A stretch of 64,000 nucleotides of DNA from Candidatus Kerfeldbacteria bacterium (GTDB lineage: Bacteria > Patescibacteriota > Patescibacteriia > UBA10025 > JAHIVO01), in assembly GCA_016214565.1 (NCBI GenBank), contig JACROE010000002.1, forward strand, positions 408,007 through 472,006, given 5' to 3'. Every line of letters starts with the position of its first letter. Position 1 is the stretch's first letter. Position numbers and translations under genes: made by a program. Positions 7,626-28,385 of this stretch are shown piece by piece. The notes beneath the pieces are model-generated. The model searched no databases. It was not told where the DNA came from and saw only the letters and a program-made list of their open reading frames with translations.

Positions 7626-7898
7626 ATGCGTGGCTACGTCTACATATTGCGAGATAATAAAGGTAAACTATACATCGGCAGTACGATTGATCTCAACCGA
7701 CGTTTGACTCAACATCAGGTAGGCCACACGAAAACAACCCACCGAATGATTGAGCCAAAACTTGTATTCAAACAACTGTTCTCTACAATTGCTGAAGCCC
7801 GACGCACCGAACGAAAACTGAAAGCGTGGAAGCGTAAAGATTATATTGAAAAAATAATTGAAGACGGATATATTAGGATTACTCTTGCGCGCCCGTAG
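7626..7898 (+). CDS. small GIY-YIG nuclease-domain protein (UPF0213/YhbQ-like)
   Basis: MRGYVYILRDNKGKLYIGSTIDLNRRLTQHQ matches the GIY-YIG core (GIY, YIG, Arg, later Glu). 90 aa. Its last codons and stop (gcg cgc ccg tag) are the 5' acceptor stem of tRNA-Arg. Confidence 0.75.
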   Translation: MRGYVYILRDNKGKLYIGSTIDLNRRLTQHQVGHTKTTHRMIEPKLVFKQLFSTIAEARRTERKLKAWKRKDYIEKIIEDGYIRITLARP

Positions 7899-7963
7899 CT
7901 CAACGGATAGAGTGCTGGTCTTCGGAACCAGTGATGGGGGTTCGATTCCCTCCGGGCGCACCA
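7889..7963 (+). tRNA. tRNA-Arg (anticodon TCG)
   Basis: Cloverleaf by eye: acceptor GCGCCCG/CGGGCGC, D-arm GCTCAACGGATAGAGT, anticodon stem CTGGT/ACCAG with loop CTTCGGA (U33, TCG, G37), T-arm GGGGGTTCGATTCCCTC, encoded CCA. Confidence 0.85.
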
Positions 7964-7989
7964 AGCGACCGAGCGAACAGATTACTATC

Positions 7990-8066
7990 GGACGATTAGC
8001 TCAGTTGGTTAGAGCGCCTCGTTTACACCGAGGAGGTCGTAGGTTCGACTCCTACATCGTCCACCA
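7990..8066 (+). tRNA. tRNA-Val (anticodon TAC)
   Basis: Acceptor GGACGAT/ATCGTCC, D-arm GCTCAGTTGGTTAGAGC, anticodon stem CCTCG/CGAGG with loop TTTACAC, T-arm GTAGGTTCGACTCCTAC, encoded CCA. Confidence 0.85.
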
Positions 8067-8096
8067 CGAACGACAACTAACGGTTATCAATAACTT

Positions 8097-8348
8097 ATGC
8101 AATACGTCCTTGGCTTTATCATGATCGGTATCGGCTTCGTCATCACCTGGAAGGCTGACTGGCTGGTCAATAATTTTGGCAGAGTCGCCTGGGCCGAAGA
8201 ACATCTGGGTATGGACGGTGGCACCCGTCTATTCTGGAAATTAATTGGCATTATTGTTATTATCGGTTCATTCTTGTATATGACTGGTGCGCTGCAGGCA
8301 ATCATCCGTGGCATATTTGGCAGCTCATTTTCTTCGGTCAGCAGCTAG
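8097..8348 (+). CDS. small hypothetical membrane protein (2 TM)
   Basis: 83-aa ORF between tRNA-Val and tRNA-Ala with two clear hydrophobic helices. No recognisable motif. Confidence 0.4.
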   Translation: MQYVLGFIMIGIGFVITWKADWLVNNFGRVAWAEEHLGMDGGTRLFWKLIGIIVIIGSFLYMTGALQAIIRGIFGSSFSSVSS

Positions 8349-8514
8349 AAAACGAGACGCGTAGCAATACGGCCAATCAATAAATTTGAAAGGTCAATGG
8401 CAACACTCAATACCCGAGCCTGACCATAGGGCGGGCGAGGGAGAGGGGCAATGATGCCAAGGGTGCAGTGGACAGCGTCAGCTGTACGCGAAACCCGCAG
8501 CATCATTGAGACGA

Positions 8515-8590
8515 GGGCCCTTAGCTCATTTGGTAGAGCGCCGCGTTTGCAACGCGGAGGTGACCGGTTCGAGCCCGGTAGGGTCCACCA
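8515..8590 (+). tRNA. tRNA-Ala (anticodon TGC)
   Basis: Acceptor GGGCCCT/AGGGTCC including a G3:U70 wobble, the alanine identity element. D-arm GCTCATTTGGTAGAGC, anticodon stem CCGCG/CGCGG with loop TTTGCAA, T-arm ACCGGTTCGAGCCCGGT, encoded CCA. Confidence 0.85.
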
Positions 8591-15667: not shown

Positions 15668-15696
15668 TTGACAATTGAGTTTTTTTATGCTATCAT
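15668..15696 (+). promoter_or_regulatory. sigma70-type promoter ahead of the SpoIID/LytB-repeat operon
   Basis: TTGACA (15668-15673), 17-nt spacer, TATCAT (15691-15696). About 175-nt leader containing a palindrome gcttgaaattcaagc. Confidence 0.45.
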
Positions 15697-15871: not shown

Positions 15872-17779
15872 ATGTACCAGCGCCATACCACCGCGCTCTT
15901 CGGAGCGTTGATGCTATTGCTCATCATCCCCTTTATACCCGGCTACCTCCAACAGGTTATGGCCGAGAATATTATGATACCAGTGGTTGCCCCGGATGCC
16001 GTCCAACCCAGCGTAACGGCCTACCTGACCAGCGGATATGTAGGGTCGCTTGGCTATCTCGACATGCCCGTTTCTCGGGCGCCACAAGTATTAGGTGTAA
16101 GCTATGAGCGAGCCCCCGCATATCGCGCACAGGAAGTAGATCGTTCTCACGGCGTGATCCGCATGAACCCGGAGCAAGCAGTGACCATTTGGATTGATTT
16201 TGAAAATACCGGCACCACTACCTGGTACAATGACGGCCCAAATTTTGTCGCACTCAATTTAACCAATCCCACCAACCGCACCAGTCAATTCCATCACGCA
16301 TTTTGGCCAGCCTCCTATCGACCGGCGAAACTGCTTCAGCGAGAAGTTCGGCCTGGTGAAATAGGTCGATTCCGCATTGCCCTTCAGGCTCCAGCCACGC
16401 CTGGTCTGTACCAGGAGCACTTCCACCTAGTCGCAGAAAACCTCGCCTGGATTGATGGTGGTTATGCCACCATCGATATCGGTGTTGGCCAAAGCGTGGC
16501 ACAGCGCCCCGATTATCGTGCCCGCGAGACGGAGCGAAGCCAGGGCGGCACGATCGCTCTACCGCCAGGCAAAGCGTTTACCTTTTGGATTGATTTTGAG
16601 AATACGGGGCTGAAAAATTGGTACAATACTGGCAATAATTTTATCGCAGTCAACGTGGACAAGCCAATTGGCCGAGTCAGCGCCTTCCAGCATCCCTTTT
16701 GGAGCGAATATTATTACCGACCCGGACGGCTGGCACAGAGCCGAATATACTCGGGGGAGCGCGGACGATTCTACTTCGCCCTCAAAGCCCCGGCTACCCC
16801 GGGTTATTACACTGAATCGTTTGCCCTGGTTGCTGAACATAAAATGTTTATCCCGGGTGGAACATTCACTATTACCTTTAAGGTAGGAAATCAAGAGGTC
16901 GGAGTAGCGGGGAGCGCCCCGGGCGAGCCGACCGTACGCATTGGTATCTATGAAGCAACTCAGCCAGTCACCATCGTGCCCAGTGGAGAGTACACGATGG
17001 CCAATGTGCTCACGGGCACCAGCGAACGGAAAAGTGGCGGCACGCCAGTCACCATCGCTACCAACATATCTACCCATTGGCGCATTGAGCCAATTGATCC
17101 CGTCGGAGTGAGCACGATAAGTAGTTATGAAAACCGCCCTGCCTGGAAACCATCGCTCAATGACAATACATTCCGCGGCGCTATTGAGGTGCGCAGTAAA
17201 CCAAATGCCAGCAGCGCCTGGGTCATTAATGAACTCCCGGTAGAATCATACCTGAAAGGTTTAGCCGAGGTTTCAAATGGACAACCCTCCGAATATCTCA
17301 AATCATTGATCGTGGCAGCGCGCTCCTACGTTCTCTGGCACCATAATCGAGGTGGGAAATATCCTGAACTTGGTTTTGATATCAACGCAATAACCGATCA
17401 AGTATACCGAGGCTACGGATTTGAGCAACGCTCGACCGATCCGCTGGGCGCCATCCAGGCAACCGCCGGCACGGTGATTACCCATCCAAAAGCAATCAGC
17501 GAGATGAATCCTTCAGGCATCGCTGTAGCGGCATACTCATCGGGTACTGACGGACGCACCCGGAGTTACCAGGAAGTTTGGGGAGGCACTCAATTCCCCT
17601 GGCTGGTTTCGGTGGCTGATCCCTATGGCATCATCAGCAACCCCACAACGCTATCCGGCAATCACATGGTGGGCATGTCGGCGAATGGTGCCCGTGGCTA
17701 TGCGCTCAACGAACAAAAAACATTTGACTGGATTCTCCAGCACTATTACACCGGTACAGCCACGAAAAAAATATATTAG
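15872..17779 (+). CDS. secreted SpoIID/LytB-domain protein with two tandem ~125-aa N-terminal repeat domains
   Basis: N-terminal signal/TM segment. Repeat A (aa 84-207) and repeat B (aa 215-339) share WIDFENTG..WYN..NF.A.N....R.S.F.H.FW..YRP..L.......GE.GRF..AL.AP.TPG.Y.E.F.LVAE. The C-terminal block YVLWHHNRGGKYPELGFDINAITDQVYRGYGFE...SSGTDGRTRSYQEVWGGT matches SpoIID/LytB. Confidence 0.7.
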   Translation: MYQRHTTALFGALMLLLIIPFIPGYLQQVMAENIMIPVVAPDAVQPSVTAYLTSGYVGSLGYLDMPVSRAPQVLGVSYERAPAYRAQEVDRSHGVIRMNPEQAVTIWIDFENTGTTTWYNDGPNFVALNLTNPTNRTSQFHHAFWPASYRPAKLLQREVRPGEIGRFRIALQAPATPGLYQEHFHLVAENLAWIDGGYATIDIGVGQSVAQRPDYRARETERSQGGTIALPPGKAFTFWIDFENTGLKNWYNTGNNFIAVNVDKPIGRVSAFQHPFWSEYYYRPGRLAQSRIYSGERGRFYFALKAPATPGYYTESFALVAEHKMFIPGGTFTITFKVGNQEVGVAGSAPGEPTVRIGIYEATQPVTIVPSGEYTMANVLTGTSERKSGGTPVTIATNISTHWRIEPIDPVGVSTISSYENRPAWKPSLNDNTFRGAIEVRSKPNASSAWVINELPVESYLKGLAEVSNGQPSEYLKSLIVAARSYVLWHHNRGGKYPELGFDINAITDQVYRGYGFEQRSTDPLGAIQATAGTVITHPKAISEMNPSGIAVAAYSSGTDGRTRSYQEVWGGTQFPWLVSVADPYGIISNPTTLSGNHMVGMSANGARGYALNEQKTFDWILQHYYTGTATKKIY

Positions 17780-17805: not shown

Positions 17806-18474
17806 ATGTCTATTATTGGTCCAAACATAGAAATTACTGAGTCAGATTGGCGCAATATGACCGACGAGCTACAGAATTACGCCCGCGGTCATTTTTGGCG
17901 CGACTATACCTGGCACGCCGCCCGCATGTCGGTGATTGACCCCGAACAATTTAAAAGTGTCCTCATCACTGATAATGAGTGGATAGGCATGCTGCGGGAA
18001 TTAGAAAACTACCGCCGCCAAGAAAATTGGGACGCTTTTGCCGCGCGCCTTGCGCGCATGAAGCTTATTGACGCCGAACGATCACGCAATATCGAAATCT
18101 CAGATGCGCAGTGGGCAAACATCCTCAACATACTGAAAAAAACTGTCATGCAAAACAATTGGATCCTCTTTGCCTCCCACGCGCACCACATGAAAACAAT
18201 TGATCCGGAGCGGTTCGCTAAAATTTCCATTGAAGACAAGGCGTGGCAAGGCATGCTAAAAAAACTTGATGAATTTCGAGGCAATGATATTGCAGGAAAA
18301 TTTACCAAGCACGCCTCATACCTGAAAAGTATTAATCCAGAACGATTCAAAGCAATTCGTATTTCTGCCTCTGATTGGCAAGTAATTGCCCAGGAGCTTC
18401 AACTCAAGCGACAAAAAAACTATTGGGCGGCATTTGCCGCACAAGCCAGCAGAATAAAAACGTTATTTGATTAA
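17806..18474 (+). CDS. unrecognised protein made of five tandem ~44-aa repeats
   Basis: Repeats at nt 17827-17964, 17965-18096, 18097-18228, 18229-18360 and 18361-18471. Consensus I-[STE]-[DE]-x-x-W-x-x-[MI]-L-x-x-L-x-x-[YF]-x4-NW-x2-FA-x4-[MI]-K-x-I-[DN]-PERF-K. I recognise no family. Confidence 0.55.
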   Translation: MSIIGPNIEITESDWRNMTDELQNYARGHFWRDYTWHAARMSVIDPEQFKSVLITDNEWIGMLRELENYRRQENWDAFAARLARMKLIDAERSRNIEISDAQWANILNILKKTVMQNNWILFASHAHHMKTIDPERFAKISIEDKAWQGMLKKLDEFRGNDIAGKFTKHASYLKSINPERFKAIRISASDWQVIAQELQLKRQKNYWAAFAAQASRIKTLFD

Positions 18475-18476
18475 CT

Positions 18477-19205
18477 ATGAATCAACTTCCTGTGAACCTT
18501 CGTATGTGGCGCAGCGCAATACTGCTTGCGTTCGGCATCTTGGTGGTGCTGGTGGGTTATGTGTACCTCTATAACGACGGATTAACGGCGCTCGCCTGGA
18601 GCCAGGCCGTGGCGGGCACTGCCGCACTCATGATTGGTATTTCTTTTGCCCTCTCTGGCATCGGCTACTGGTGGGATTTCCTGGATGCCCGCGTCGGCTA
18701 CCGTAAATATTACGGTCTAGTCGGGTACTATTTTGCCCTGCTACACTCGGTCATGCTGCTCTTCATCTTTCCCAATCGATATTGGTATGGATTTTTTGAA
18801 AACTTTTTTACACCAAACATCATCCTTGGCCTGATCGCCATGACCATTCTAACGATGATGGCAATTGTCTCAAATAATTGGGCAATGCGGCGCCTGGGGC
18901 CAATTCACTGGCGGCAACTCTTGCGCCTTGGATACCTCGCTTATGCGCTCTTAATTGTTCGAGCGCTATATATAGAAGGGGGGAATTGGCTTGCCTGGCT
19001 TCGATCATTTGATGGATTGCCGCCGCCTCGATTAATAGTCTCCATTTGTGCTGCCGCGGTTATTATCTTCCGTGGATCGGTATTTATTTCGAAAAAAGCG
19101 CGAGCGGCTCGAGCCCAGACGCTCGCCAGCCAGCCGGCACCGGCGTCAGCGGAAAATAAAACCCCCGCCGCTGATATGCACCAGGGCGGGGAGAGCAATC
19201 AATAA
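18477..19205 (+). CDS. polytopic membrane protein with spaced His residues (possibly ferric-reductase/MsrQ-like)
   Basis: About 6 TM helices with conserved-looking His in TM2 (ALLHSV) and at PIHW. The start is 3 nt after the repeat gene's stop, so it is in an operon. The heme-binding call is tentative. Confidence 0.4.
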   Translation: MNQLPVNLRMWRSAILLAFGILVVLVGYVYLYNDGLTALAWSQAVAGTAALMIGISFALSGIGYWWDFLDARVGYRKYYGLVGYYFALLHSVMLLFIFPNRYWYGFFENFFTPNIILGLIAMTILTMMAIVSNNWAMRRLGPIHWRQLLRLGYLAYALLIVRALYIEGGNWLAWLRSFDGLPPPRLIVSICAAAVIIFRGSVFISKKARAARAQTLASQPAPASAENKTPAADMHQGGESNQ

Positions 19206-19213
19206 CTGATTGC

Positions 19214-19741
19214 TTATTTGACGAGGCCGAGCCGGCCGATACGAGCCGCCACCGAGCCCAGGGGTCGCTGCATCAGTGCCGCAATTTCACGCCCGGTATG
19301 ACGGGGATAGAGCCGCCGCAACCGGCGATCTGCCTGTTTTGTCCAGGGCAATTCGACTCTCCCGTTACGGTGAATCGTTTTTTTGGTCAGGCCCAGTAAC
19401 TGCGCCTGATGGTAAATCGAGTCCCGGGTTCGCCGAAGCGAAATGCACAATTTCGCCATCGGAGTAGTCGCATACTGGCGACGAAGTTTGCGTTTTTCCG
19501 CGGCTGACCACGGTGTGCCTGATTTCACATGGATACGGGCCGAAACTTTCGGACGGCTGACCTGAGAGATTGGCTGTTTGTCGCCGAATACTGCCAGGAG
19601 CAGCCCGCGATATCGAAGGCAAATCGTCGGTTTGCCATTCATCGTGGTTGGCACCATTGACCGAGCGAATCTCAAACGCTGACCGAGCTGCTGCAGATTC
19701 CCCACCTGAACCGACGGTACCAAGGTTCCCTGTCGAGCCAT
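19214..19741 (-). CDS. DNA-binding protein with two tandem GcrA-like HTH repeats
   Basis: Repeats WSAAEKRKLRRQY....MAKLCISLRRTRDSIYHQAQLLGL and WTKQADRRLRRLY.RHTGREIAALMQRPLGSVAARIGRLGL match the GcrA N-terminal domain pattern W-[ST]-x2-E-R-x2-L-x2-L-[WY]...[IV]A..LG...[TN]AV..[KQ]..RLGL. Basic. The start may be an internal Met (MVPTT or MNGKP). Confidence 0.6.
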   Translation of the reverse strand: MARQGTLVPSVQVGNLQQLGQRLRFARSMVPTTMNGKPTICLRYRGLLLAVFGDKQPISQVSRPKVSARIHVKSGTPWSAAEKRKLRRQYATTPMAKLCISLRRTRDSIYHQAQLLGLTKKTIHRNGRVELPWTKQADRRLRRLYPRHTGREIAALMQRPLGSVAARIGRLGLVK

Positions 19742-20048: not shown

Positions 20049-20480
20049 CTACCAGGCCACCAGCAGTCGCGGCCGCTTAAACCGTTTCGGCTCTCTGAGC
20101 TGACGCGGTGGCAGCTTATTGATGCTGAAGTAAGCTGCCTGCTTCCGTATGGCACTGGGAGTCCGTTTGAGCTGTGTGGCCATCCACCGGGTGATAGAGA
20201 ACGGATAGTATCGGCGCAAAAAGTTCAGTTCTGAACGAAGCCACGGCCGTTTGACATACTGCTTTTTGCTCCGCCATGTCCTTGATGCGGGCAACTCAAG
20301 CGCGCTATCTAACGCCATAAACCGGATTCTGATTCCGCACAATGCAGCCTGCTTACGCACGGCATTCATTGACCGACCAAGTCTCTCTGCTACCCATTCG
20401 GTGGGATACTCACCATAGAGCTCGAACAAAAGAAACCTTTCATTTTCGCTCCAACGATTGCCGGCTCGCTGTTGAGACAT
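20049..20480 (-). CDS. DNA-binding protein with two tandem GcrA-like HTH repeats (paralog)
   Basis: Repeats WSENERFLLFELYGEYPTEWVAERLGRSMNAVRKQAALCGI and WLRSELNFLRRYYPFSITRWMATQLKRTPSAIRKQAAYFSI, with the same architecture as 19214-19741 but diverged. A plausible minus-strand promoter lies about 60-95 nt upstream (TTGACA at 20571-20576 on the minus strand). Confidence 0.6.
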   Translation of the reverse strand: MSQQRAGNRWSENERFLLFELYGEYPTEWVAERLGRSMNAVRKQAALCGIRIRFMALDSALELPASRTWRSKKQYVKRPWLRSELNFLRRYYPFSITRWMATQLKRTPSAIRKQAAYFSINKLPPRQLREPKRFKRPRLLVAW

Positions 20481-28310: not shown

Positions 28311-28385
28311 GGCCCCATCGTCTAACGGTTAGGACACCACGCTTTCAATGTGGTAACCGGGGTTCGATTCCCCGTGGGGCTACCA
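28311..28385 (+). tRNA. tRNA-Glu (anticodon TTC)
   Basis: Acceptor GGCCCCA/TGGGGCT, D-arm GTCTAACGGTTAGGAC, anticodon stem CCACG/TGTGG with loop CTTTCAA, T-arm CGGGGTTCGATTCCCCG, encoded CCA. Confidence 0.8.

What the first reader, a model, noticed from the sequence alone, without database searches (positions are those of the whole stretch)
17806..19205. Unrecognised 5 x 44-aa tandem-repeat protein translationally coupled to a His-bearing polytopic membrane protein
The 222-aa product is essentially nothing but five consecutive repeats with a strict consensus (I-[ST]-[DE]-x2-W...L...NW..FA....[MI]K.I[DN]PERFK). It has no signal peptide. Its stop is 3 nt before the start of a 6-TM protein with conserved-looking histidines, possibly b-type heme ligands. 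It sits in an operon with a secreted SpoIID/LytB protein. I do not recognise the repeat as any described family. The regular W/NW/PERF spacing suggests a solenoid scaffold that could dock onto the membrane partner.
Basis: seen in the sequence. Interest (0 to 1): 0.65.

Follow-up and report, generated by a model that had tools for sequence, protein, structure and literature searches.

The report
Unnamed helical-repeat protein of Patescibacteria
The gene is real and encodes a five-repeat helical scaffold protein from a large, unnamed family of candidate-phyla-radiation bacteria, but its membrane neighbour lacks the usual haem-binding histidines and is only a lineage-specific partner, so this is a modestly interesting new protein family, not a new redox machine.

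Summary
The 222-aa ORF at 17806-18474 (+) does consist of five in-register 44-aa repeats (periodicity z = 23). It is a conserved gene: ungapped orthologues occur in at least 17 Patescibacteria species, with saturated dS and dN/dS of 0.08 or less. No Pfam, NCBIfam, PHROG, PADLOC or PDB model matches it. AlphaFold gives a confident all-helical solenoid with no Foldseek neighbour in PDB or BFVD.

An exhaustive repeat-profile search found 245 cluster representatives of the same unnamed family. Most are 265-300 aa, with N- and C-terminal tails that the window protein lacks. In Parcubacteria-type contigs they form arrays of 6-13 paralogues interleaved with an AAA+ ATPase and a VWA protein.

The downstream 6-TM protein has the STEAP/ferric-reductase fold. 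The canonical bis-His haem pair is Tyr/Arg in this family, and His/Arg in the window. The tight junction between the two genes (-1 to +8 nt) exists only in a crown subgroup and was lost repeatedly. The older linkage is to the upstream SpoIID/LytB gene.

The best reading is a cytoplasmic protein-interaction scaffold co-expressed with envelope proteins. The fold and family are shown. Docking to the membrane protein is only inferred.

The parts
17806..18474 (+). Repeat protein ('REP'), 222 aa. It is a predicted cytoplasmic all-alpha solenoid of five 44-aa units.
   Evidence: ORF; periodicity. AF2 gives pLDDT 90.9 and pTM 0.86, with 2 long helices plus 1 short helix per repeat. Orthologues in 17 species genomes are 29-82% identical. 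dN is 0.13-0.25 with saturated dS.
17827..17958 (+). Repeat 1 (aa 8-51): IEITESDW...GHFWRDYTWHAARMSVIDPEQFKS
17959..18090 (+). Repeat 2 (aa 52-95)
18091..18222 (+). Repeat 3 (aa 96-139)
18223..18354 (+). Repeat 4 (aa 140-183). This variant unit has DIxGKFTKHA in place of NWxxFA, and the variant is conserved as such across orthologues.
18355..18471 (+). Repeat 5 (aa 184-222). It is truncated and lacks the final short helix.
18472..18479 (+). Junction TAA-CT-ATG between REP and the membrane protein (2-nt spacer).
   Evidence: The same or a tighter junction (-1 to +8 nt) occurs in 7 of 9 loci that have the membrane gene.
18477..19205 (+). 6-TM protein with the ferric-reductase/STEAP/MsrQ fold. 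The canonical haem ligand pair is H90/R162 here and Tyr/Arg in the family.
   Evidence: Pfam PF01794 scores 27.6 bits against a cut-off of 28. NCBIfam MsrQ and MamZ hits are weak. AF2 gives pLDDT 89.9. Foldseek matches STEAP1/2/4 at TM 0.64-0.67, E = 3e-5.
15872..17779 (+). Secreted SpoIID/LytB-domain protein with two NBR1-type Ig-like domains. It is the first gene of the co-oriented trio and ends 26 nt upstream of REP.
   Evidence: The SpoIID-then-REP order is conserved in nearly all orthologous loci.
15668..15696 (+). Best sigma-70-like promoter match (11 of 12, extended -10), in the divergent intergenic region upstream of the trio. No + strand terminator-like site lies between 15872 and 19205.
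   Evidence: consensus scan only.

Best explanation
The ORF encodes a soluble, probably cytoplasmic, alpha-solenoid built from five ancient 44-aa three-helix repeats.

It is the single-copy, core-only branch of a large, unnamed repeat-protein family of Patescibacteria (CPR). This branch lacks the family's N-terminal leader and its C-terminal 'PExKxF' tail. It occurs in a Kerfeldbacteria-related clade.

Like other solenoids, it most likely works as a protein-protein interaction scaffold or adaptor. In this lineage it is co-transcribed with a secreted SpoIID/LytB-type peptidoglycan-remodelling enzyme. In a crown subgroup that includes this genome, it is also translationally coupled to a 6-TM ferric-reductase-fold membrane protein that has lost the bis-His haem site.

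The proposed mechanism is that the solenoid binds the conserved, positively charged cytoplasmic loops of that membrane protein, or another envelope-associated partner where the membrane gene is absent. In this way it would organise or regulate a cell-envelope module.

Shown: the gene is real and under purifying selection; the repeat architecture; the solenoid prediction; family membership; the synteny pattern; the fold of the partner and its ligand loss.

Inferred: cytoplasmic location, scaffold role, docking on the membrane protein, and the link to envelope remodelling.
For: - Repeat periodicity has z = 23.
- AF2 gives pLDDT 90.9, all helical, and 4 of 5 models agree.
- The repeat profile retrieves 245 cluster representatives, 107 of them at E <= 1e-10, each with 3-6 repeat matches. 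Their five repeats align in register with the window protein.
- 17 species-level orthologues were found. Ten of them align without gaps over 222 codons, with dN 0.13-0.25 and saturated dS. Repeat-specific motifs are conserved between orthologues.
- SpoIID precedes REP in the same orientation in nearly all loci, down to 29% identity.
- The REP-membrane protein junction is -1 to +8 nt in 7 of 9 loci that have the pair.
- A relative (P0132) fuses five such repeats to a LysR-type HTH and effector-binding domain. This argues for a cytoplasmic interaction or sensor module.
- The membrane protein's predicted cytoplasmic loops (YRKYxGL, LGPxRWRxLLRLGY) are its most conserved parts. They include R76, which aligns with the STEAP1 FAD-site residue R161 (PMC7363144).
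Against: - No direct evidence of any interaction exists; complex prediction could not be run.
- The membrane gene is absent beside REP in 12 orthologous loci, including the outgroups and a near-identical sister pair (L017 has it, L001 does not). REP therefore does not depend on an adjacent copy.
- Orthologues of the membrane protein in other Kerfeldbacteria and Patescibacteria have no REP neighbour.
- The whole region (flippase, SpoIID, REP, queA, bPH, sortase, ruvB) is syntenic in this clade. Adjacency to SpoIID may therefore reflect inherited gene order rather than function.
- SpoIID is exported, while REP has no signal peptide.
- The AF2 model is a single-sequence prediction of an idealised repeat, and one of the five models failed (pLDDT 41).
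Confidence: 0.4

Rival explanations
1. The solenoid docks onto a b-haem-binding redox membrane protein of the MsrQ/YedZ or ferric-reductase type and takes part in transmembrane electron transfer.
For: The partner has the ferric-reductase/STEAP fold. The window protein keeps one canonical His, H90, which aligns with STEAP1 H175. The gene junction is tight.
Against: - The second axial ligand is Arg (R162, aligned with STEAP1 H268) in the window and in 73 of 78 homologues.
- The first ligand is Tyr in 71 of 78, including the 79%-identical relative P0003.
- Only the five most distant homologues, which are canonical YedZ-like proteins, carry His/His.
- No MsrP-type partner lies in the operon.
- From general knowledge, not tested here: CPR bacteria typically lack haem biosynthesis and respiratory chains.
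Confidence: 0.08
2. The neighbourhood is inherited gene order only. REP works independently of SpoIID and the membrane protein. It could be a client or adaptor of an AAA+/VWA-type machine, or of another partner encoded elsewhere in the 1.1-Mb genome.
For: - In six independent contigs of the wider family, the paralogues always sit with a MoxR-like AAA+ (AAA_5, 3.9e-11) and a VWA protein (1.9e-11).
- The region is broadly syntenic in the clade.
- The membrane gene has been lost repeatedly.
Against: - No AAA+ or VWA homologue lies in the 64-kb window or in the 12-kb orthologous loci.
- The window branch lacks the N- and C-terminal tails shared by the array members.
- Spacing of -1 to +8 nt with the membrane gene in several species suggests selected co-expression.
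Confidence: 0.25
3. REP is a cytoplasmic holder or inhibitor (chaperone or 'immunity' type) for the SpoIID-like cell-wall enzyme before export.
For: SpoIID followed by REP is the oldest and most constant linkage. The gaps are 25-217 nt in most loci, and the order holds down to 29% identity.
Against: - SpoIID carries an ordinary N-terminal signal or anchor and would be exported unfolded.
- Locus L027 keeps REP without an adjacent SpoIID. In L017, L018, L021 and L029, 1.2-3.2 kb of other genes are inserted between the two.
- The wider family has no link to SpoIID.
Confidence: 0.1
4. REP is a modular nucleic-acid-binding solenoid of the PUF, TALE or PPR type.
For: It has three-helix repeats of about 40 aa. 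The window protein has pI 9.2.
Against: Charge is not conserved. Orthologue pI ranges from 4.9 to 9.6, and the wider family has a median of 5.2. There is no match to any RNA- or DNA-binding repeat model or structure.
Confidence: 0.04

Closest known systems
Generic alpha-solenoid repeat proteins (TPR, Sel1, ARM, HEAT)
   Same: Tandem helical units of about 34-44 aa stack into an elongated scaffold. The three helices per ~44-aa unit resemble the ARM layout. The top, non-significant Foldseek hits are TPR proteins and designed helical repeats.
   Different: No sequence model of these families matches any of 20 members. The best Foldseek result is E = 0.2 with TM <= 0.32. The motif I-x-I-[ST]-x-x-D-W ... 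[ND]-W-x-x-F-[AS] ... M-K-I-[LI]-D-P is distinct.
Unnamed CPR repeat family found here (e.g. P0083, P0106, and P0133 of Ca. Staskawiczbacteria)
   Same: Five repeats align in register at 22-30% identity. Profile E-values reach 1e-31.
   Different: Those proteins are 265-300 aa. They carry an N-terminal leader (MSFNPDRINIHELTIEEPEK...LPFDPE) and a C-terminal tail (AAEKVEVTDKGLEITM...PxPExKxF). They form arrays with AAA+ and VWA genes. The window protein has none of these features.
MsrQ/YedZ and STEAP ferric-reductase-domain membrane proteins (compared with the downstream gene)
   Same: Six-TM fold, with TM-score 0.64-0.67 to STEAP1/2/4. The cytoplasmic-side Arg equivalent to the STEAP1 FAD-site residue R161 is conserved.
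   Different: The bis-His haem ligation is not conserved: His/Arg here and Tyr/Arg in the family. There is no MsrP or NADPH-binding domain partner in the operon. The Pfam score is just under the gathering threshold.
SpoIID-SpoIIM-SpoIIP engulfment module of sporulating Firmicutes (recalled from general knowledge, not tested)
   Same: A SpoIID-type peptidoglycan enzyme is encoded together with a polytopic membrane protein.
   Different: No homology of the membrane protein to SpoIIM was tested or found. No SpoIIP gene is adjacent. CPR bacteria do not sporulate. This is a loose analogy only.

Membership tests
Described helical repeat families (Pfam TPR, Sel1, ARM, HEAT clans; cell-wall-binding repeats) | Significant match to a curated sequence model | tested here: not met
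   Pfam scans of the window protein and 19-20 relatives found nothing above noise and no recurring family. NCBIfam, PHROGs and PADLOC also found none.
Described helical repeat families (Pfam TPR, Sel1, ARM, HEAT clans; cell-wall-binding repeats) | Structural superposition on a solved repeat protein | tested here: inconclusive
Unnamed CPR 44-aa repeat family (defined here) | Five in-register ~44-aa units with W8, [ND]W23-24, F[AS]27-28 and MK-I-[LI]-DP | tested here: met
Unnamed CPR 44-aa repeat family (defined here) | N-terminal leader and C-terminal PExKxF tail; array with AAA+ and VWA genes | tested here: not met
   The alignment shows both tails absent. No AAA+ or VWA homologue lies in the window or the orthologous loci.
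Ferric-reductase domain superfamily / MsrQ (downstream gene) | Six-TM FRD fold | tested here: met
   AF2 gives pLDDT 89.9. Foldseek matches STEAP1/2/4 at E = 3e-5, TM 0.64-0.67.
Ferric-reductase domain superfamily / MsrQ (downstream gene) | Pfam PF01794 gathering score | tested here: inconclusive
   27.6 bits against a cut-off of 28. Several homologues carry a precomputed PF01794 hit, and NCBI names the identical protein 'ferric reductase-like transmembrane domain-containing protein'.
Ferric-reductase domain superfamily / MsrQ (downstream gene) | Pair of axial His ligands for b-haem in TM3 and TM5 | tested here: not met
   The window has H90 and R162. The family has Tyr in 71 of 78 and Arg in 73 of 78. 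The reference ligands STEAP1 H175/H268 are from PMC7363144.
Ferric-reductase domain superfamily / MsrQ (downstream gene) | Adjacent periplasmic MsrP-type or cytoplasmic NAD(P)H/flavin partner | tested here: not met
   The neighbours are REP and a convergent 175-aa HTH-like gene.
SpoIID/LytB (upstream gene) | TIGR02669 domain model at its curated cut-off | tested here: met
   87.3 bits against 83.3. Pfam SpoIID matches at 4.9e-11.

The most novel reading that the evidence does not exclude
The 44-aa repeat proteins are the client or adaptor set of an undescribed CPR-specific machine. That machine is built from a MoxR-like AAA+ ATPase and a zincin-VWA protein. The shared C-terminal PExKxF tails, present on both the paralogues and the ATPase, would serve as docking signals.

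In a Kerfeldbacteria-related clade, a tail-less copy was co-opted with a haem-less ferric-reductase-fold membrane protein. Together they would control SpoIID-driven cell-wall remodelling, for example during division or attachment of these episymbionts.
Probability: 0.1. Interest if true: 0.7.

Novelty: new variant of a known kind. Interest (0 to 1): 0.4.

Why it matters
- It defines a sizeable protein family that has no name in Pfam, NCBIfam, PHROGs or PADLOC: at least 245 clusters at 50% identity, mostly from Patescibacteria. The family has a clean repeat signature and a confident solenoid model.
- It shows that a whole Patescibacteria clade of ferric-reductase-fold membrane proteins has replaced the haem-binding His pair by Tyr/Arg. 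Automatic labels such as 'YedZ haem-binding subunit' on these proteins are therefore probably misleading.
- The array, AAA+ and VWA context of the wider family gives a concrete starting point for working out what these proteins do in organisms with very few characterised genes.
- The window gene itself is an ordinary, single-copy member with no demonstrated mechanism.

Tried and rejected
- A tandem-repeat finder on the DNA found nothing. The repeats are ancient and visible only in protein.
- The first word-index homologue search found only one relative, P0001. The exhaustive profile search was needed.
- Weak single hits were treated as noise: Unc5h2 death domain at E = 1.1, AM410 at 15.9 bits against a 700-bit cut-off, and DUF7167, EVE and TPR_ELP1. 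None recurs across members.
- A viral-contig scan with the broad subfamily found nothing.
- Literature searches for SpoIID in Patescibacteria, Kerfeldbacteria, and MoxR/VWA in CPR found no description of this family or its arrays.
- Nucleic-acid binding was rejected because charge is not conserved.
- I first read L001 as lacking SpoIID. That was withdrawn: the contig ends about 1 kb upstream, inside an insert like the one in its sister locus L017.
- The context of the LysR fusion protein P0132 was uninformative.

Full report
**1. Observation**

The ORF at 17806-18474 (+) is 222 aa and starts at the first possible start codon after an in-frame stop. Sliding the protein against itself gives BLOSUM62 sums of 238 at offset 44 and 187 at offset 88. 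The next best offset gives -42. Across 2000 shuffles the maximum over all offsets averaged -62 and never exceeded 4, so z = 23.

The units are aa 8-51, 52-95, 96-139, 140-183 and 184-222. They share 10-16 of 44 residues. At the DNA level they are 42-53% identical, and TRF finds no array. The duplication is therefore old.

The N-terminus (MSIIGPNIEITESDW) enters repeat 1 directly and has no hydrophobic segment. The stop TAA (18472-18474) is followed by CT and then the ATG of the next gene at 18477, a 2-nt spacer rather than 3. The upstream gene ends 26 nt before the start.

**2. The gene is real and conserved**

A scan of one genome per GTDB species found 17 loci with relatives at 29-82% identity, all in Patescibacteria-type MAGs. 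Several of these records are titled 'uncultured Gammaproteobacteria', but they carry the same Patescibacteria gene order.

The identical membrane protein is named by NCBI as coming from Candidatus Kerfeldbacteria, on a 1.116-Mb contig.

Ten orthologues align to the window gene over all 222 codons without a gap. dN is 0.13-0.25, dS is saturated, and dN/dS is 0.06-0.08 where it can be computed.

Each repeat keeps its own peculiarities across orthologues. An example is DIxGKFTKHA in repeat 4, in place of NWxxFA.

**3. What the repeat protein is**

No curated model matches it:
- Pfam, NCBIfam, PHROGs and PADLOC scans of the window protein and up to 20 relatives gave only scattered sub-threshold hits. 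None recurs across members.
- phmmer and a family profile against all PDB sequences gave nothing below E = 0.06. The best hits were designed TIM barrels.

AlphaFold2 from the single sequence gives mean pLDDT 90.9 and pTM 0.86. Four of the five models score 88.6-90.9 and one fails at 41. Each repeat forms two long helices and one short helix (DPERF).

**4. A large unnamed family**

A profile of the single 44-aa unit (alignment A1) was searched exhaustively against 1.84 billion cluster representatives. It found 245 proteins at E <= 1e-3 and 107 at E <= 1e-10. Most are 265-300 aa with 3-6 repeat matches.

Their five repeats align in register with the window protein at 22-30% identity. They also carry two features the window protein lacks:
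- an N-terminal leader (for example MSFNPDRINIHELTIEEPEK...LPFDPE);
- a C-terminal tail (AAEKVEVTDKGLEITM...PPLPEIKKF); about half end in PxPExKxF.

The only organism name attached to these proteins is Candidatus Staskawiczbacteria; apart from that the sources give only 'hypothetical protein'.

In six independent contigs these proteins form same-strand arrays of 6-13 paralogues. The arrays are interleaved with two larger genes:
- a ~730-aa AAA+ ATPase (Pfam AAA_5 at 3.9e-11) whose own C-terminus ends PEIRKF or PEARQF;
- a ~725-aa protein with an N-terminal HEAGHH motif and a C-terminal VWA domain (1.9e-11).

Neither partner occurs in the window or in the orthologous loci.

One relative, P0132, fuses five repeats to a LysR-type HTH and effector-binding domain. 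This points to a cytoplasmic interaction or sensor module.

Net charge is not conserved. Orthologue pI ranges from 4.9 to 9.6, and the family median is 5.2. This argues against a generic nucleic-acid-binding role.

**5. The membrane partner**

The 242-aa protein at 18477-19205 scores 27.6 bits on Pfam Ferric_reduct, against a cut-off of 28. It weakly matches the MsrQ and MamZ models.

Its AF2 model, built from a 26-sequence alignment, has pLDDT 89.9. It superposes on the STEAP1/2/4 transmembrane domains at E = 3e-5 and TM 0.64-0.67.

In STEAP1, the b-haem is ligated by H175 and H268 (PMC7363144). In the HMMER alignment these residues correspond to H90 and R162 of the window protein. Among 78 homologues:
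- the first site is Tyr in 71 and His in 6;
- the second site is Arg in 73 and His in 5;
- only the five most distant, YedZ-like sequences have His/His, and the window protein is the only one with His/Arg.

The other histidines, H144 and H235, are not conserved either. The haem-ligand idea is therefore not supported.

The best-conserved segments are the predicted cytoplasmic loops, YRKYxGL and LGPxRWRxLLRLGY. They include R76, which aligns with the STEAP1 FAD-site residue R161. Whether a flavin is bound is unknown.

**6. Is the gene trio conserved?**

Synteny was scored in 21 non-redundant orthologous loci.

SpoIID followed by REP:
- Same strand, with a 25-217 nt gap, in most loci. This includes relatives at only 29-36% identity (L028, L030/L004).
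- Four loci have 1.2-3.2 kb inserted between the two genes. In L017 and L021 the insert carries a reverse transcriptase plus a bAvd gene, the hallmarks of a diversity-generating retroelement.
- L027 has no adjacent SpoIID.
- L001 is cut by the contig end, so its state is unknown.

REP followed by the membrane gene:
- Present in the window, L012, L013, L014, L015, L016, L017, L018 and L021.
- The junction is -1 to +8 nt in seven of these nine and about 99 nt in the other two.
- Absent in L001, L004, L019, L020 and L022-L030.

In a neighbour-joining tree of the repeat protein, the loci with the membrane gene are scattered within the crown group. All outgroups lack it, and the near-identical pair L017/L001 differ (no bootstrap).

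Orthologues of the membrane protein in other Kerfeldbacteria and Patescibacteria sit in unrelated contexts without a repeat gene, for example HU | membrane gene, NAGPA.

The coupling to the membrane protein is therefore a lineage-specific acquisition that has been lost repeatedly. The link to SpoIID is older. However, the whole region is syntenic (flippase | SpoIID, REP | queA, bPH | sortase | ruvB), so inherited gene order cannot be excluded.

A strong promoter-like site lies upstream of SpoIID at 15668-15696. No + strand terminator-like site lies within the trio. These are consensus scans only.

**7. Interpretation**

The best-supported reading is a cytoplasmic alpha-solenoid adaptor from an undescribed CPR repeat family. 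It is expressed together with envelope proteins.

Docking on the cytoplasmic loops of the haem-less ferric-reductase-fold protein is plausible where that gene is present. It is inferred, not shown.

The rivals are:
- independence from the neighbours, with partners elsewhere in the genome;
- a pre-export holder for SpoIID;
- a redox role;
- nucleic-acid binding.

I put the scaffold and envelope reading at about 0.4 and the haem and redox reading below 0.1.

**8. Novelty and score**

The kind of protein, an alpha-solenoid repeat scaffold, is well known. This repeat family is not described in any library searched, and no paper found describes it. It is best rated a new variant of a known kind.

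The window gene is an unremarkable single-copy member. The more intriguing biology lies outside the window: the arrays with AAA+ and VWA genes and the shared C-terminal tail. Interest is 0.4.

Noticed in passing
L005 26-11260; L031 1322-12010; L033 325-16227; L034 2-14694; L038 1321-6476; L039 1008-12821: The wider repeat family forms same-strand arrays of 6-13 paralogous ~270-290-aa genes. The arrays are always interleaved with a ~730-aa MoxR-like AAA+ ATPase and a ~725-aa HEAGHH-plus-VWA protein. I could find no description of such a system.
   Followed up: partly
C-termini of P0083, P0084, P0106 etc. and of the AAA+ proteins L005 32-2245 and L033 2926-5097: The array paralogues (about 50 of 98) and the associated AAA+ ATPase end in the same C-terminal motif, P-E-x-[KR]-x-F (e.g. 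PPLPEIKKF, PEIRKF, PEARQF). This suggests a shared docking or sorting signal.
   Followed up: partly
window 18477-19205 and homologues P0002-P0079: A whole Patescibacteria clade of ferric-reductase-fold proteins has Tyr/Arg in place of the bis-His haem ligands, while the cytoplasmic YRKYxGL motif is kept. Several of these proteins are auto-annotated as 'YedYZ heme-binding membrane subunit'.
   Followed up: yes
L017 2982-5779; L021 2820-5789: A reverse transcriptase (RVT_1, 5.7e-18), a bAvd accessory gene (7.8e-16) and a 263-288-aa unknown gene are inserted between SpoIID and the repeat gene. This is probably a diversity-generating retroelement. The template and variable repeats were not searched.
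   Followed up: partly
window 19214-19741 (-) and 20049-20480 (-): Two weakly paralogous genes (175 and 143 aa; BLASTP E = 2e-6) have no family match. Each contains two copies of a ~45-aa SANT/Myb-like motif (W-[ST]-x2-E-x3-L-x2-Y ... LG[LI]). The 175-aa gene also follows the membrane gene in L012.
   Followed up: partly
P0132 (L041 1421-3310): A LysR-type regulator (HTH_1 plus LysR_substrate) is fused to five C-terminal copies of the 44-aa repeat. It sits on an Arg-rich contig next to an integrase. This shows that the repeat module is also used as a regulator domain.
   Followed up: partly
L017, L018, L020, L021, L023, L030 (record titles): Six GTDB-representative MAGs titled 'uncultured Gammaproteobacteria bacterium' carry the same Patescibacteria-type gene order as the window. 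The record titles are probably placeholders or mislabels.
   Followed up: no
P0001 (L001 995-1609) against window aa 86-103: The orthologue P0001 has an 18-aa deletion spanning the boundary of repeats 2 and 3. This would shift the solenoid register, yet its near-identical sister in L017 is full length. It may be an assembly error or a recent degenerative change.
   Followed up: no
window 7889-8590: A cluster of three tRNA genes (Arg-TCG, Val-TAC, Ala-TGC) lies on the + strand. tRNA-Glu lies at 28311-28385.
   Followed up: no
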